DNA from: Planctomycetota bacterium
GTDB taxonomy: Bacteria > Planctomycetota > J058
Length of the DNA: 64,000 bases
Direction of reading: 5' to 3'
Assembly: GCA_019636275.1 (NCBI GenBank)
Contig: JAHBXY010000034.1
Span: 4,002-68,001 of the forward strand
The translations under genes were made by a program, and so were the position numbers. The notes beneath the pieces are model-generated. The model had not been told where the DNA came from. It did not search any database and worked only from the letters and a program-made list of their open reading frames with translations. The stretch's first letter is position 1. Each line of letters opens with the position of its first letter. Of this stretch, positions 19,301-42,591 are shown piece after piece.

Positions 19301-22300
19301 GGCTCGGGGACCTCAATGCCTCGCCGGCCGACGACGGCCACCGCTTCGGCGACCCCGTGCGCGCCGAGGCGCCCTCGGTGCGCGTCGCGACCGGGCAGAC
19401 GCTCATGCAGGCGGTCTACGGCCCCGCGCAGGCGGTCGTGACGCTGCTCGAGACGAGCCCCCTGGGCCAGCCCCTGCGCGCGGTCGACCCCGAGGGGAAC
19501 GTCACGCTGTTCCACTACCACCCCGAGGCCGATCCCGACGGCGACGGCGTTCCGGAGCCGGGGGTCACGTCGACGGTGACGACCGGCGGCTGGCTGGCCG
19601 AGGTGATCGTCGACGCCGTCTCGGCCCCGGGCCGCAACGCCGGCACGAACCCGCCGCCCGTGGCCGCGCGCACGCGCCTCTTCTACGACCGCGCGGGCAA
19701 CCCGACGCGGGTGATCGACCCGCGCGGGGTCGAGCACCGCACGACCTACAACGTGCTCAACGAGCCGGTCTCCTCGCGGGTGGCCACCGCGATCGTCGGC
19801 TCGTCCGGGGGCCCGGTCACCGAGCCGGGCCTGGCGCCGCTGGGCTACGAGGCGCGGGTCACCTACGACGCCAACGGCCGCCCGGTCGAGGTGCGCGTGA
19901 GCAACGCCGGTGAGCGCGACGGCTCGGTGACGCAGGTGGCGACGAACCCCTGGTGGACGCGCAAGGTCGCCTACGACCTCCTCGACGGCGCCGTCCTCAC
20001 GCTGGCCGAGGTCGAGCCGATCGCCGACGACGCGTCGATCACGGTGAGCTCGCCGGGGGTCGTCGTGAGCCGGGTCGTCTACGAGCCCAACCGCGACGTG
20101 CGCCTGGTGGTCAAGCCGGAGGGGAACGTCGTCCACTACGTCCACGACGAGCGGAGCCGGCTGGCCTACGTCACCGACGGCCTGGGGACGCCCGAGCAGG
20201 CGACGACGACGCTGCTCGTCGACGTGAACGGCAACCTCGAGCGGATCGTGAGCCCGGTCAAGCGGAACCCGACCAAGGCGCCCGGCTACGCGGGCGACGT
20301 CACCCTGCTCCGCTACAACGGCTTCGACGAGCAGATCTGCACGCACGACCCGGAGGGGAACTGCGGCGACGCGGTCATGGATCCGCTGGGCCAGAAGGTG
20401 CGCTTCGTGCGGCACGGACCGAACGAGGAGAACCTGCCGCGCCTGCTCGAGGTGGAGTACCACTACGACGAGCTAGGCCGGCTCTTCCGGACGGACGCGC
20501 GGGTGTTCGAGGACCTGACGCAGCGCTTCGAGAAGCACGGCGCGGCCTTCCGCACGATCCCCACGATCGACCACGCGCCGCCGGCCGGGGAGGAGGAGGC
20601 GGTCACGCTCGTCGAGCTCGACGCGCTCGGGCGGGCCCTGCGCGGGGTCGACCCGAAGGGCGACGAGAGCCTGGCGGTGTGGGACGGCGCCGGCCGGCTC
20701 CTGCGGGCGCTGGGGCCCATGTTCAGCTCGGTCGCGGGCGCGGGCGCCGTGCGTAACGAGGTGCGCTTCGCCTACAACCAGGCGGGCCAGCCGGTCTCGG
20801 TCACGACGTTCGACCGCTCGCCGCTCGGGCTCGAGCAGACCTTCACGTCGACGGCGGCCTACGACGCCGTGGGCCGGCTGTTCCAGGCCACCGACCCGGC
20901 GGGGCACACCGGCCGGCTGGTGTACGACTCGCGCGGCAACGTGATCGGGGCCTCGGACGCCAACTCCCTGGCCACGGTGCCCAACCTGCCAGGCCTCTGG
21001 CCGCCGACGGTGAACGGCCACGGCAACGTCGCCCGGACCTTCTACGACGGCCTCTCGCGCCCGGTGGCCAGCGAGGTCTTGCTGAAGAAGGGCGGCGTGG
21101 GCGACGGCAGCCTCGACGACACGAACCTCGACACGGGCAACGCGAGCAACCCCGACGGCAAGATCACGATCACCCAGCGCTGGGATCGCAACTCGCGTCT
21201 CGTCTCGCGCAGCGACGACAACGGTAGCACCACCGGCTGGGCCCACGACGCCCGCGACCGCGTCGTCTACACCCTCGGCGCCGACCTGAGCGTCCAGCGC
21301 ACGCTCTACGACCCCGACTCGCTCGTGCGGCAGACGATCGACCGCAACGGGACGGTGATCGACAGGTCGTACGACGCGGCCGGGCGGTTGTTGAAGGTCG
21401 AGGCCACGCGGCGGGCCACGAACCTCGAGGGCACCGGTCAGGCGGTCGAGGGGACGGCCGTGCAGGCGTTCGAGTACGACGGCCTGCACCGCGTGCGCCT
21501 GGCGGTCGACCAGAACGACCCGCTCGACCCGACGGACGACGTGGCGACGTCGTTCACGTACGACTCGCTGGGGCGGCAGCTCACGGAGCGGCACCGCTTC
21601 CGGGCGCAGACGAGCCTCGTGAGCACGTTCGCCACGCAGGGCCGGATCACCGTCGGCGCGGCGGGGATCGACCGGACGATCACGCGGACGTTCGACCTCG
21701 ACTCGAACCGCACGTCGACCACCTACTCGAGCGGCCGGACGCTCACCTACCAACTGGACGGCCTTGACCGCCTCCAGGCGATCCGCGACTCCGTCGGCAC
21801 GATCACGGCCATGGAGTTCGTGGGCGGGCGGCCGCTGGCGAGCACCACGGGCCGCGGGACGGTGAGCACGTCCTACTCGTACGACGCGAAGCGGCGGCTG
21901 ACGGGCCTGGACCACGTCGGGAGCGCAGGGAGGATGGCCGGCTTCGGCTACGCGTGGGACCGCGCCGACCGCCGCGCGAGCGAGACGCACCTGCCGGCGG
22001 TGGGCGTGGCGGCGCGGACGGAGACCTACACGTACGACTCGGCGTCCAGGATCACGCGCGTGGCCTTCGGCGACGCGCGGCCGGACACGTCGTGGGTGAT
22101 CGACGGCGTGGGCAACTGGGTCAGCCGCACCGAGGGCGGCCAGACGCAGACCACGAACCAGCGCCAGAACGGGAGGTACGCCCCGGACCTCATGAACGAG
22201 GTCCAGCGCCTGGCGACGTTCAACGCGCTGGGCTCGCTCGTGAAGGACGAGCAGCACACCCAGGACCCGAACGGAAACCGGATCAAGAGCGGCGAGTGGC

Positions 22301-42312: not shown

Positions 42313-42591
42313 GACGGCTGACTCTCCCCCGGAACCCCGAGCATGACCGTCCCCGCCGACATGCGCCGCGTCCTCCGCGCCCTCGCCGGCAAGCGCTGCT
42401 GGCACGTCTCCGCCGGCCCCGGCGTCGGCTCGACGTTCCAACTCGCCCTGGGCGCCAGGGTGCCACGGGCGAGGCCGCTCGCCAACCCTGCGCAGCCGCC
42501 GGCCTACCGGAAGTTCGAGGGCGAGTGCGCGCTCATGGTCTGGTGCGCGTGGCGGCTGGACGGACCCAAGGGCCCGGTGGTCAGCAGCGAC
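42147..42591. repeat. 445-bp direct repeat, copy 2
   Basis: Matches 24232-24676. Identity ends exactly at the IS insertion point. Confidence 0.85.
42343..42591 (+). pseudogene. truncated paralogue of 24428-24928, interrupted by IS insertion
   Basis: Identical N-terminal 83 aa (MTVPADMRRVLRALAGK(R)CWHVS...VVSSD), then the sequence switches to IS sequence. Confidence 0.45.

What the first reader, a model, noticed from the sequence alone, without database searches (positions are those of the whole stretch)
20758..42591. Two pairs of long direct repeats bracket a 17.8-kb segment, set up for toxin-tip displacement
Repeat pair A is the 2,166-bp RHS core (20758-22923 and 38602-40767). Repeat pair B is 445 bp (24232-24676 and 42147-42591) and lies downstream of both toxin/immunity cassettes. 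Homologous recombination within pair A would fuse the full-length RHS to the orphan ART-like tip and its cognate downstream gene. It would delete the GNAT-like tip, its partner gene, gene 24428-24928 and the whole intervening mobile element. This is the classical RHS 'orphan deployment' architecture. It is unusual to see it flanked by a second conserved repeat and with a 13-kb mobile element embedded between the copies. The orphan has no obvious start codon, which is typical for silent modules.
Basis: partly seen in the sequence, partly recalled or inferred. Interest (0 to 1): 0.6.

Follow-up and report, generated by a model that had tools for sequence, protein, structure and literature searches.

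The report
RHS toxin cassette carried by mobile element
A planctomycete RHS toxin gene and a silent spare toxin tip are separated by a plasmid-like mobile element that, in several other genomes too, carries such a spare tip beside its integrase genes, so the element probably ferries toxin/immunity cassettes between bacteria.

Summary
Both repeat pairs are real. Pair A (20758-22923 / 38602-40767) is 92.5% identical with no indels. Pair B (24238-24676 / 42153-42591) is 93.8% identical. Divergence is mainly synonymous (dN/dS 0.16 and 0.12), so collapse or duplication artefacts are unlikely. (1) The partner (immunity) genes are convergent, on the minus strand (24397→23750 and 42312→41716). They share an almost invariant 53-aa N-terminal "head", and pair B is that head plus its upstream region and the 5' end of gene 24428-24928. 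(2) The head defines a large unannotated family (3,885 cluster representatives). In 9 of 9 pairs it lies tail-to-tail with an RHS tip, and the only functionally annotated Pfam families its tails match are immunity families (Imm5_like, Imm5). (3) The 13-14 kb insert is not incidental. It is a plasmid-like integrative element, and an RHS 3' fragment follows the second integrase in 7 modules from 4 assemblies. Best reading: a co-integrate between a cassette-carrying element and the resident rhs locus, with A and B acting as homology arms. Which tip is incoming, and whether integration was homologous or integrase-mediated, is unresolved.

The parts
10393..23769 (+). Full-length RHS toxin gene. The ORF opens at GTG 10270, and the likely start is ATG 10393, which gives a signal-peptide-like N-terminus. 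It carries Ig-like domains, DUF6531 and RHS repeats, with the core ending in DPVNRVDPWGL.
   Evidence: ORF list; translation; Pfam Big_13, Big_5, DUF6531 and RHS_repeat; GC3 0.92
20758..22923 (+). Pair A copy 1: the last 722 codons of the RHS core (left homology arm).
22924..23769 (+). Toxin tip 1 (281 aa). It has a hydrophobic N-terminal part and a C-terminal domain that is possibly GNAT-like (unproven). GC3 is low (0.69).
   Evidence: Pfam Acetyltransf_1 at E=0.13 only; AF2 pLDDT 63; weak GNAT-enriched Foldseek hits; composition
23750..24397 (-). m1, the convergent partner (putative immunity) gene of tip 1 (215 aa, NCBI KF878_12750). It has a conserved 53-aa head (24239-24397) and a variable all-alpha tail. 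It overlaps the RHS stop by 20 nt.
   Evidence: It is the only open frame in the interval; family search; model pLDDT 92
24238..24676 (.). Pair B copy 1 (right homology arm): the head of m1, a 30-nt intergenic gap, and codons 1-83 of gene X.
24428..24928 (+). Gene X (166 aa, no known family), divergent from m1 and intact only here.
   Evidence: no homolog in any of the 58 related loci
25251..32304 (+). Left part of the element backbone: p143 (25251-25682), p602 (26418-28226, conserved in sister elements), and the variable cargo p1067 (28263-31466, with an HTH_3 region) and p246 (31564-32304).
   Evidence: Pfam; p602 is 77-78% aa identical in L053/L054; the p143-like region and p602 sit next to an RHS-end/head pair in L031; no PADLOC hits
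32324..32467 (.). GC-rich tandem repeat (period 20, ~7 copies) located exactly where the block conserved with sister elements begins. It could be a res or iteron site (not tested).
   Evidence: the conserved block starts at 32466-32480
32526..38381 (+). Conserved element core: serine resolvase (32526-33143), cI-type HTH repressor (33180-33620, minus strand), TRL protein (33731-34303), Rep-like P-loop/wHTH protein p497 (34506-35999, Pfam MTBMA_p00010_2nd), p148 (36040-36486), and tyrosine recombinases int1 (36483-37433) and int2 (37437-38381).
   Evidence: Pfam; 86% DNA identity to L053/L054 over 32466-37213; 122 p497 homologs; similarity to plasmid primase proteins
38382..38601 (.). 220-nt spacer between the int2 stop and the start of the RHS homology. 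It is the junction of backbone and cassette. It is not conserved with other elements, and GTG 38425 lies within it.
38602..40767 (+). Pair A copy 2: the 5'-truncated RHS core fragment of the orphan.
40768..41709 (+). Toxin tip 2 (313 aa) with a DUF3990 domain (ART clan). GC3 is 0.67.
41716..42312 (-). m2, the convergent partner (putative immunity) gene of tip 2 (198 aa, NCBI KF878_12830). It has the same head as m1 and a different tail. Its stop lies 6 nt from the orphan's stop.
42153..42591 (.). Pair B copy 2: the head of m2, the intergenic gap, and a truncated 5' fragment of gene X (42343-42591).
42772..43863 (-). DDE (rve-type) transposase gene. A homolog (52-53% aa) occupies the same position next to the head gene in L004 and L006.
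   Evidence: Pfam; synteny

Best explanation
The region is a co-integrate between a resident rhs toxin locus and a ~14-kb plasmid-like integrative element. The element's backbone runs p602 ... resolvase, cI-like repressor, TRL, Rep-like p497, int1, int2. Like its relatives in other Planctomycetota, it carries one 'spare' cassette directly downstream of int2: a 5'-truncated rhs core fragment, a toxin tip, and a convergent immunity gene. The variable part of every cassette (tip plus immunity tail, both with low GC3) sits between two conserved sequences. One is the 3' end of the rhs core (pair A). The other is the invariant 'head' of the immunity gene together with its upstream region (pair B). 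An element-borne cassette and a chromosomal cassette therefore share both arms. Integration of the circular element into the rhs locus gives exactly the observed order: A-tip-imm-B-[backbone]-A-tip-imm-B in direct orientation. The integration could be a single crossover in either arm or an integrase-mediated event at the left edge of A. The structure can resolve again. A crossover in A (17,844 nt) leaves the chromosome with RHS-tip2/m2 and releases a circle carrying tip1/m1. A crossover in B (17,915 nt) does the opposite. Entering through one arm and leaving through the other exchanges toxin tip and immunity between chromosome and element, which is a natural analogue of two-step allelic exchange. 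Shown: the repeats, the gene map, the convergent head-bearing partner genes, the element family, and the recurrent int2-to-rhs-fragment linkage. Inferred: circular form, mode of integration, which cassette came in, that the partner genes confer immunity, and that resolution or exchange actually happens.
For: Repeats and their nature. Both pairs are confirmed, ~93% identical and without indels. Substitutions are mostly at third codon positions (36/20/106), with dN/dS 0.16 (A) and 0.12 (gene X part of B). Both copies therefore diverged as functional coding sequence in separate lineages, not as a decaying in-situ duplicate. Cassette structure. The only open frame between each tip and pair B is on the minus strand. 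The two products share a 53-aa head and differ in the tail. Tail and tip share low GC3 (0.59-0.69, against 0.9 in the arms). NCBI calls the same genes. Head DNA is 75-91% conserved in dozens of loci, and that conservation stops at ~24238-24245, which is the left edge of pair B. In 9 of 9 RHS-tip/head-gene pairs the ORFs are convergent, with stops -55 to +19 nt apart. Among head-family tails, the only functionally annotated Pfam families matched are Imm5_like (5 of 111 members) and Imm5 (1); five more match DUF6931, a family of unknown function. Element. The backbone is 86% identical in DNA to L053/L054 and is related to L056. Relatives carry Prim-Pol, AEP primase, UvrD or DUF3987 genes. p497 carries Pfam MTBMA_p00010_2nd and is ~35% identical to part of plasmid primase proteins. 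Linkage. A same-strand rhs 3' fragment follows int2 in the window, L004 (twice), L006, L012, L055 and L058. L055 and L058 were reached through p497, so that selection is independent of the head. In L055 no RHS-like sequence lies anywhere else in the 21.5-kb locus, so the fragment there is cargo, not a displaced resident tip. L031 reproduces the window's left junction: RHS end, then a convergent head gene, then a p143-like region and p602. Sister-element contigs break at int1 or ~85 nt after int2, as expected if a repeat follows.
Against: No close relative of this genome was retrievable. The nearest RHS core is 58% identical, and the source MAG is not in the contig index. There is therefore no empty-site or alternative-arrangement comparison. 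No circular copy of the element was found. L005 and L036 have int1-int2 followed by a head gene but no detectable RHS core motif, and L057 has its RHS fragment on the other side of p497, so the linkage is frequent but not universal. The DDE transposase sits beside the head gene in the window, L004 and L006, so it may belong to the element. In that case the element would extend to ~43.9 kb and simple Campbell geometry would need an extra event to explain the truncated gene X copy. At 7% divergence, homologous recombination is much less efficient than between identical repeats (general knowledge from enterobacterial studies; rates in Planctomycetota are unknown). The immunity function of m1 and m2 is not tested, and neither hits any Pfam or NCBIfam family.
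Confidence: 0.5

Rival explanations
1. An rhs-targeting integrative element. int1 and int2 integrate the element site-specifically into the rhs core, with the left edge of pair A as the crossover point. The element brings its own core 3' end, tip 1, m1 and gene X as a replacement, much as islands that target tRNA or protein genes carry a substitute gene end. The int2-adjacent orphan (tip 2/m2) would then be the displaced resident tip, and tip 1 would be the newly deployed one.
For: Integrases sit at the element end that abuts the orphan, and RHS homology starts 220 nt after int2. In several loci the fragment after int2 begins at the hyperconserved core-end motif (GLYYFRNRYYDP...), at residues ~663-681 of the pair-A protein in L004, L012 and L058. 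That motif would make a good conserved target. A homolog of the window's right flank (45.3-46 kb) lies next to a head gene in L020, which hints that the m2 side is chromosomal context.
Against: The fragment start next to int2 varies widely: core residue 1, 416, 519, 670 and 681 of the pair-A segment. No conserved sequence exists in the int2-to-core spacers. In L055 and L058 no full-length RHS adjoins the other end of the element. The two core-end fragments flanking L058 share no DNA similarity.
Confidence: 0.2
2. A classical orphan array with an unrelated later insertion. An older tip (tip 2/m2) was displaced downstream when tip 1 was acquired by the main gene, as proposed for enterobacterial rhs loci. 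Independently, a mobile element then landed between the immunity gene region and the orphan.
For: The overall main-plus-orphan layout, with shared core sequence ending at DPxGL, matches the enterobacterial pattern described in PMC3967940. Mobile elements commonly insert in such variable regions (general knowledge).
Against: It does not explain why int2 is followed by an rhs 3' fragment in six other modules from three other assemblies. It does not explain why the RHS homology begins right after int2. It does not explain why a second arm reaching into gene X is duplicated. dN/dS of 0.16 with dS of 0.22 means the orphan core evolved under purifying selection for most of its divergence, which is unexpected for a long-silent remnant.
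Confidence: 0.15
3. An assembly chimera. The sample holds a free plasmid-like element with one cassette and a chromosome with another. The assembler threaded through shared identical tracts (up to 138 nt) and produced an artificial co-integrate in this MAG contig.
For: The source is a metagenome-assembled genome. Identical tracts of 131-138 nt exceed common k-mer sizes. Sister-element contigs break in this neighbourhood.
Against: Both copies are complete and ~7% divergent, so nothing is collapsed or duplicated. Each junction type has an independent counterpart elsewhere: int2 followed by an rhs fragment in other assemblies, and an RHS end plus head gene followed by p143 and p602 in L031. A chimera would need two compensating path switches inside pair A.
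Confidence: 0.07

Closest known systems
Enterobacterial rhs main/orphan loci (e.g. Salmonella Typhimurium LT2 STM0291/STM0292; Koskiniemi et al. 2014, PMC3967940)
   Same: There is a full-length rhs gene plus a 5'-truncated rhs-CT fragment with a different toxin tip and its own partner gene. The shared core sequence ends at the PxxxxDPxGL motif. The repeats are direct, so recombination can create a chimeric full-length gene expressing the orphan tip while deleting the main tip and its immunity gene. The orphan lacks a clear translation start.
   Different: The repeat is four times longer (2,166 vs 522 bp) and slightly more diverged (92.5 vs 95%). The partner gene is convergent, not co-directional. 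A second homology arm flanks the cassette. Main and orphan are separated by ~14 kb of plasmid-like element whose integrase end is linked to such orphans in other genomes. The host is a planctomycete. The RHS protein has a signal peptide and Ig-like domains, and no PAAR or VgrG was seen in the protein itself.
rAID systems of Bacteroidales (recombinase-associated acquired interbacterial defence; described in PMC12247911)
   Same: A tyrosine recombinase is physically linked to orphan toxin-defence cassettes. Conserved sequence lies at the 5' side of otherwise diverse immunity genes. Co-oriented arrays of such genes exist in related loci (L042/L044, L008, L043).
   Different: rAID has one recombinase followed by an array of co-oriented immunity genes with conserved intergenic motifs. 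Here there are two tandem recombinases plus replication-type genes and a single toxin-tip-plus-immunity cassette, and the conserved element is inside the coding sequence (a 53-aa head). No sequence relationship to rAID was tested.
Polymorphic toxin systems and polyimmunity loci; Imm5 / Imm5_like immunity families (Zhang et al. 2012, PMC3482391)
   Same: The N-terminal delivery part is conserved and the C-terminal toxins are variable, with adjacent immunity genes and spare cassettes. The proteins are mostly alpha-helical. A few head-family members match Imm5_like or Imm5, and the m1 model is all-alpha.
   Different: m1 and m2 themselves match no Pfam or NCBIfam family. As far as I could find, the invariant N-terminal head combined with a hypervariable tail and the strict tail-to-tail arrangement with the toxin are not described in that survey. 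That absence rests on a term search only.
Integrative plasmid-like elements, and laboratory two-step allelic exchange with suicide plasmids
   Same: The backbone combines Rep/primase-type genes, a resolvase, a cI-like repressor and integrases. The cassette is flanked by two homology arms. Integration yields direct repeats around the vector backbone, and resolution through the other arm would swap the allele.
   Different: The comparison is functional only. No circular form, att site or exchange event has been observed here.

Membership tests
Rhs main/orphan toxin-immunity locus | Full-length Rhs/YD-repeat protein whose core ends in a PxxxxDPxGL motif followed by a variable C-terminal toxin domain | tested here: met
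   RHS_repeat at 6.6e-43, plus DUF6531. The core ends in DPVNRVDPWGL in both copies, and the tips are unrelated after it.
Rhs main/orphan toxin-immunity locus | Orphan: a 5'-truncated rhs fragment keeping part of the core, with a different tip and its own partner gene, located downstream of the main gene | tested here: met
   38602-41709 carries 722 core codons plus the DUF3990 tip. m2 abuts it. Upstream of 38602 there is no RHS similarity.
Rhs main/orphan toxin-immunity locus | Small immunity gene immediately downstream of the toxin tip on the same strand | tested here: not met
   All plus-strand frames in 23770-24237 and 41710-42152 are full of stops. The only open frames are on the minus strand, convergent with the toxin. 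The same holds in 9 of 9 pairs.
Rhs main/orphan toxin-immunity locus | Recombination between main and orphan core sequences actually deploys the orphan tip | not testable with these tools
   Only the substrate is shown: 2,163 nt at 92.5% identity with identical tracts up to 138 nt. No reads or related strains were available.
Rhs main/orphan toxin-immunity locus | Delivery by T6SS (PAAR/VgrG association), as in the enterobacterial reference cases | tested here: not met
   The RHS protein has no PAAR or VgrG domain. Its N-terminus looks like a signal peptide followed by Ig-like domains. Neighbouring genes were not searched exhaustively.
rAID (recombinase-associated acquired interbacterial defence) | Tyrosine recombinase followed by an array of at least 2 co-oriented short orphan immunity genes with conserved intergenic motifs (definition in PMC12247911) | tested here: not met
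   Two recombinases are followed by one toxin fragment and one convergent partner gene. There is no array in the window. Arrays of head genes exist in other loci, but their link to a recombinase was not examined.
Integrative mobile element with tyrosine recombinase | Integrase gene(s) at one end of a discrete block of accessory, replication or regulation genes that recurs in other genomes | tested here: met
   int1 and int2 lie at the right end. The block from resolvase to int1 is 86% identical in L053/L054, and the same order occurs in L055, L056 and L058.
Integrative mobile element with tyrosine recombinase | Short att direct repeats at both ends, and an empty site in relatives | tested here: inconclusive
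   The flanking direct repeats are long gene segments (pairs A and B), not short att sites. No conserved motif occurs in the int2-proximal spacers. There is no tRNA at the ends. No close relative was available for an empty-site test.
ADP-ribosyltransferase clan (DUF3990) toxin - tip 2 | Match to Pfam PF13151 above the gathering threshold | tested here: met
   E = 6.7e-10, 39.3 bits against a cut-off of 32.2. Clan membership is taken from PMC7955679. Catalytic residues were not examined.
GNAT acetyltransferase toxin (TacT/AtaT-like) - tip 1 | Significant match to a GNAT family profile or a GNAT fold | tested here: inconclusive
   Pfam Acetyltransf_1 gives E=0.13, 13 bits against a cut-off of 20.7. 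The single-sequence model has pLDDT 63. No Foldseek hit reaches E<=1e-3, although many weak hits are GNATs.
Imm5 / Imm5_like immunity proteins - m1 and m2 | Match to PF14423 or PF21805 | tested here: not met
   m1 and m2 match no family even at E<=1. Only 5 of 111 family members match Imm5_like and 1 matches Imm5.

The most novel reading that the evidence does not exclude
Planctomycetota harbour a family of plasmid-like integrative elements (Rep-like p497 plus two tandem tyrosine recombinases) that act as dedicated vehicles for RHS toxin-tip/immunity cassettes. Each cassette comes with two built-in homology arms: the conserved rhs core end, and an invariant 53-aa 'head' shared by thousands of otherwise hypervariable immunity genes. 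The element can therefore plug its cassette into any resident rhs locus and take the resident one away. Under this reading, main/orphan arrangements are co-integrate intermediates of horizontal cassette exchange rather than fossils of past displacement.
Probability: 0.35. Interest if true: 0.75.

Novelty: new variant of a known kind. Interest (0 to 1): 0.6.

Why it matters
How new toxin tips and matching immunity genes reach rhs and other polymorphic-toxin loci has mostly been inferred from 'orphan' remnants. The vehicle has rarely been visible. Here the vehicle appears to be caught in place, and the same vehicle-plus-cassette arrangement recurs in other genomes. If the reading is right, it gives a concrete and testable route for horizontal exchange of toxin/immunity pairs, namely integration through one arm and resolution through the other, in a phylum outside the well-studied T6SS-bearing Proteobacteria. 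It also uncovers a very large unannotated protein family (3,885 cluster representatives). The family's invariant head and hypervariable tail mirror the conserved-core/variable-tip design of the toxins. That would help annotate immunity genes in Planctomycetota metagenomes and would explain why the cassette is bracketed by two conserved sequences.

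Full report
OBSERVATION. A self-comparison of the window finds exactly two long repeat pairs. Pair A is 20758-22923 vs 38602-40767 and pair B is 24238-24676 vs 42153-42591, both direct, with offsets of 17,844 and 17,915 nt. Pair A aligns without gaps at both DNA and protein level, with 162 mismatches in 2,163 nt (92.5% identity). 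Pair B has 27 mismatches in 439 nt (93.8%). The longest identical tracts are 138 and 131 nt in A and 91 and 90 nt in B. The window is ~75% GC, so I selected genes by third-position GC. Because the copies differ by 7%, a collapsed or duplicated assembly is not the explanation.

SOURCE. The orphan product is 100% identical to an NCBI protein from 'MAG: Planctomycetes bacterium' on a 68,451-bp contig. It is annotated as a 1094-aa DUF3990 protein, which implies a GTG start at 38425. The next closest RHS core in 5.8 billion proteins is only 58% identical, and the MAG is not in the contig index. Strain-level comparison was therefore impossible, and I relied on more distant loci.

THE TOXIN GENES. 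ORF 10270-23769 (likely start ATG 10393, with a signal-peptide-like N-terminus) encodes a ~4,460-aa protein with Ig-like domains, DUF6531 and RHS repeats. Pair A is the last 722 codons of its core and ends at DPVNRVDPWGL in both copies. The sequences are unrelated after that motif. Tip 2 matches DUF3990 above threshold, and DUF3990 is listed in Pfam's ART clan (PMC7955679). Tip 1 has only a sub-threshold GNAT hit (E=0.13). A single-sequence model of its C-terminal 138 residues has pLDDT 63. That model gives no significant Foldseek match, although the weak hits are rich in GNATs, including TacT. 'GNAT-like' therefore remains unproven. Substitutions between the two core copies fall 36/20/106 by codon position, with dN/dS 0.16 and dS 0.22. 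The orphan core thus spent most of its divergence under purifying selection. This fits recent derivation from a working rhs gene in another lineage better than a long-silent remnant.

THE PARTNER GENES AND THE NATURE OF PAIR B. In the unique intervals between each tip and pair B, every plus-strand frame is full of stops and only one minus-strand frame is open. This gives m1 (24397→23750, 215 aa) and m2 (42312→41716, 198 aa). They are convergent with the toxin, and their stops lie -20 and +6 nt from the toxin stops. NCBI calls the same genes, KF878_12750 and KF878_12830. They share an N-terminal 53-aa 'head' (MSDAKLRELERRWRETGAVEDEAAYLLERVRVGDLTRERLELAAYCGHEGARR) and then diverge. Head GC3 is 0.92, whereas tail GC3 is 0.59-0.62, like the tips at 0.67-0.69. 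Pair B is therefore the head (159 nt), a 30-nt gap, and the first 83 codons of the divergent gene X (24428-24928). Gene X is intact in copy 1 and truncated at 42591 in copy 2. So the variable unit is one contiguous block, tip plus immunity tail, bracketed by two conserved arms.

THE HEAD FAMILY. A profile of m1 and m2 finds 299 proteins in the indexed search and 3,885 cluster representatives in the exhaustive search, of which 2,244 have E<=1e-10. Almost all are ~200 aa long, with a near-invariant head and a poorly alignable tail. Head DNA is 75-91% identical across dozens of metagenomic loci, and that conservation ends at ~24238-24245, which is precisely the left edge of pair B. In every locus where a head gene neighbours an RHS core end (the window twice, plus L004, L006, L011, L012, L013, L023 and L031), the two ORFs are tail-to-tail. 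Stops lie -55 to +19 nt apart, tips are 249-314 aa and partners 194-237 aa. Of 111 members, 5 match Imm5_like and 1 matches Imm5. These are the only functionally annotated Pfam families hit, and five further members match DUF6931, of unknown function. With the 111-sequence alignment, m1 models confidently (pLDDT 92, pTM 0.86) as a single all-alpha domain with no significant solved relative. Immunity function is thus well supported by context but is not demonstrated. Other loci hold co-oriented arrays of head genes (L042/L044 with spacings of 517 and 619 nt, and L008, L043). These resemble the polyimmunity loci of Zhang et al. 2012.

THE INTERVENING ELEMENT. Between the cassettes lie p143, p602, p1067 (HTH_3), p246, a serine resolvase, a cI-type HTH gene (minus strand), a TRL protein, p497, p148 and two tandem tyrosine recombinases. 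p497 has 122 strong homologs, nearly all from Planctomycetota. It carries Pfam MTBMA_p00010_2nd, which is named after an archaeal plasmid ORF. Its residues 67-396 are ~35% identical to part of toprim/CHC2 'DNA primase' proteins on plasmids, including 9-11-kb ones. Contexts of the closest homologs show the same backbone. L053 (sister MAG) and L054 are 86% identical in DNA over 32466-37213 and share p602 at 77-78% aa, but they have different central cargo (Prim-Pol and UvrD in L053). L056 has an AEP primase, L055 has HTH_17 and an AEP primase, and L058 has DUF3987. This is a family of plasmid-like integrative elements with conserved ends and a variable middle.

THE KEY LINK. In loci reached through the head (L004 twice, L006, L012) and, independently, through p497 (L055, L058), int2 is followed on the same strand by an rhs 3' fragment. 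The distance is a few tens of nt to ~1.7 kb. In L004, L006 and L012 the fragment is followed by a convergent head gene. In L004 and L006 a DDE transposase homologous (52-53%) to the window's follows as well. That makes 7 modules in 4 assemblies, counting the window. The fragment starts at different core positions: residue 1, 416, 519, 670 and 681 of the pair-A segment. In L055 the 21.5-kb locus contains no other RHS sequence, so there the fragment-plus-tip (a 626-aa ORF) is cargo of the element. L031 reproduces the window's left junction: an RHS end, a convergent head gene, then a p143-like region and p602. There are exceptions. No RHS motif is detectable after int2 in L005 and L036, and in L057 the RHS fragment lies on the other side of p497.

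INTERPRETATION. The simplest account of all this is that the element carries one cassette next to int2 and has joined the resident rhs locus through sequence shared by the two cassettes. This produces A-tip-imm-B-[backbone 24677-38601]-A-tip-imm-B. Either arm could have been the crossover site. Alternatively, the integrases acted at the left edge of A, which is the second-ranked rival. The structure can resolve through A (17,844 nt) or through B (17,915 nt). In through one arm and out through the other would swap tip and immunity between chromosome and element. It would give an in-frame RHS-tip 2 chimera, as in the Salmonella case, where 522 bp at 95% identity suffice (PMC3967940). What is shown is the anatomy and its recurrence. 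What is inferred is circularity, the mode of integration, the direction of transfer, immunity function, and actual exchange. A classical 'displaced orphan plus unrelated insertion' history does not explain the recurrent int2-to-rhs linkage or the second arm. An assembly chimera is unlikely, because each junction type has an independent counterpart in other assemblies, but only reads can exclude it.

COMPARISON AND NOVELTY. The locus works like an enterobacterial rhs main/orphan locus, but it fails one textbook feature (a co-directional immunity gene) and lacks the T6SS signature. It shares with Bacteroidales rAID the association of a tyrosine recombinase with orphan defence cassettes (PMC12247911), but it does not meet rAID's definition. 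My literature searches found no description of integrase- or Rep-bearing elements carrying rhs 3' cassettes in Planctomycetota, nor of an immunity family with an invariant head. These searches cover open-access text only. I rate it a new variant of a known kind. It is of moderate to high interest because the vehicle of cassette exchange seems to be caught in place, and because a very large unannotated immunity-type family comes with it.

Noticed in passing
window 32324-32467: A GC-rich tandem repeat (period 20, ~7 copies, 74% matches) lies between p246 and the resolvase gene. It sits exactly where DNA conservation with the sister elements L053/L054 begins (32466-32480). It could be a res site or replication iterons.
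   Followed up: partly
window 44015-44059: A 47-nt stretch just beyond the transposase gene is 89% identical to core positions 21997-22043 and is closer to copy A1 than to A2. No RHS similarity is detectable at protein level around it. It may be a remnant of an older cassette or junction.
   Followed up: partly
window 44160-44307 and L001 7140-7287: A 150-nt segment right of the transposase is 80% identical, in reverse orientation, to part of a 368-aa gene in the sister MAG locus L001. That locus also carries two head genes and an Imm1-like gene.
   Followed up: no
window 6746-6956: A ~210-nt imperfect palindrome (self reverse-complement match, 77% over 224 nt, with inner arms at 93-94%) lies between two plus-strand genes upstream of the RHS locus.
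   Followed up: no
L042 5559-11593 and L044 6928-11086 (also L008, L043, L041, L017): Co-oriented arrays of up to five head-bearing genes, some only 517-619 nt apart, occur with no RHS nearby. They look like polyimmunity loci built from this family.
   Followed up: partly
L017, L018, L022, L026, L028, L029: Head-like sequences (29-46 residues, 55-68% identity) occur in MAGs labelled Woesearchaeota and Methanosarcinales, several per contig. This could be mis-binning, a more distant related family, or genuine spread outside Planctomycetota.
   Followed up: no
L053, L054, L056 (contig ends): Contigs of the three closest sister elements all terminate within int1 or ~85 nt after int2. This suggests that repeated sequence (integrase copies or rhs fragments) regularly breaks assemblies at this point.
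   Followed up: no
L057 4478-7781: In another Planctomycetota MAG, a truncated 720-aa RHS gene followed by a co-directional 376-aa LRR protein lies ~3.4 kb upstream of p497. The first integrase there looks frameshifted, and a PIN-domain gene follows the second. This is a differently arranged relative of the element.
   Followed up: no
L058 500-1581: To the left of that element, a short RHS core-end fragment plus a 247-aa tip starts immediately after a stop codon. An ORF ends just upstream of it, and its C-terminus (…ELVRWGERLVTAASLGEVF) looks like the end of a transposase-associated protein (from memory, not tested). It appears to be another orphan-type module.
   Followed up: no
one search list (P0366, P0376, P0382, P0383, P0385, P0402, P0409): Some head-family proteins are double length (400-470 aa) with two matched stretches. 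These are head-tail-head-tail fusions, reminiscent of polyimmunity proteins.
   Followed up: no
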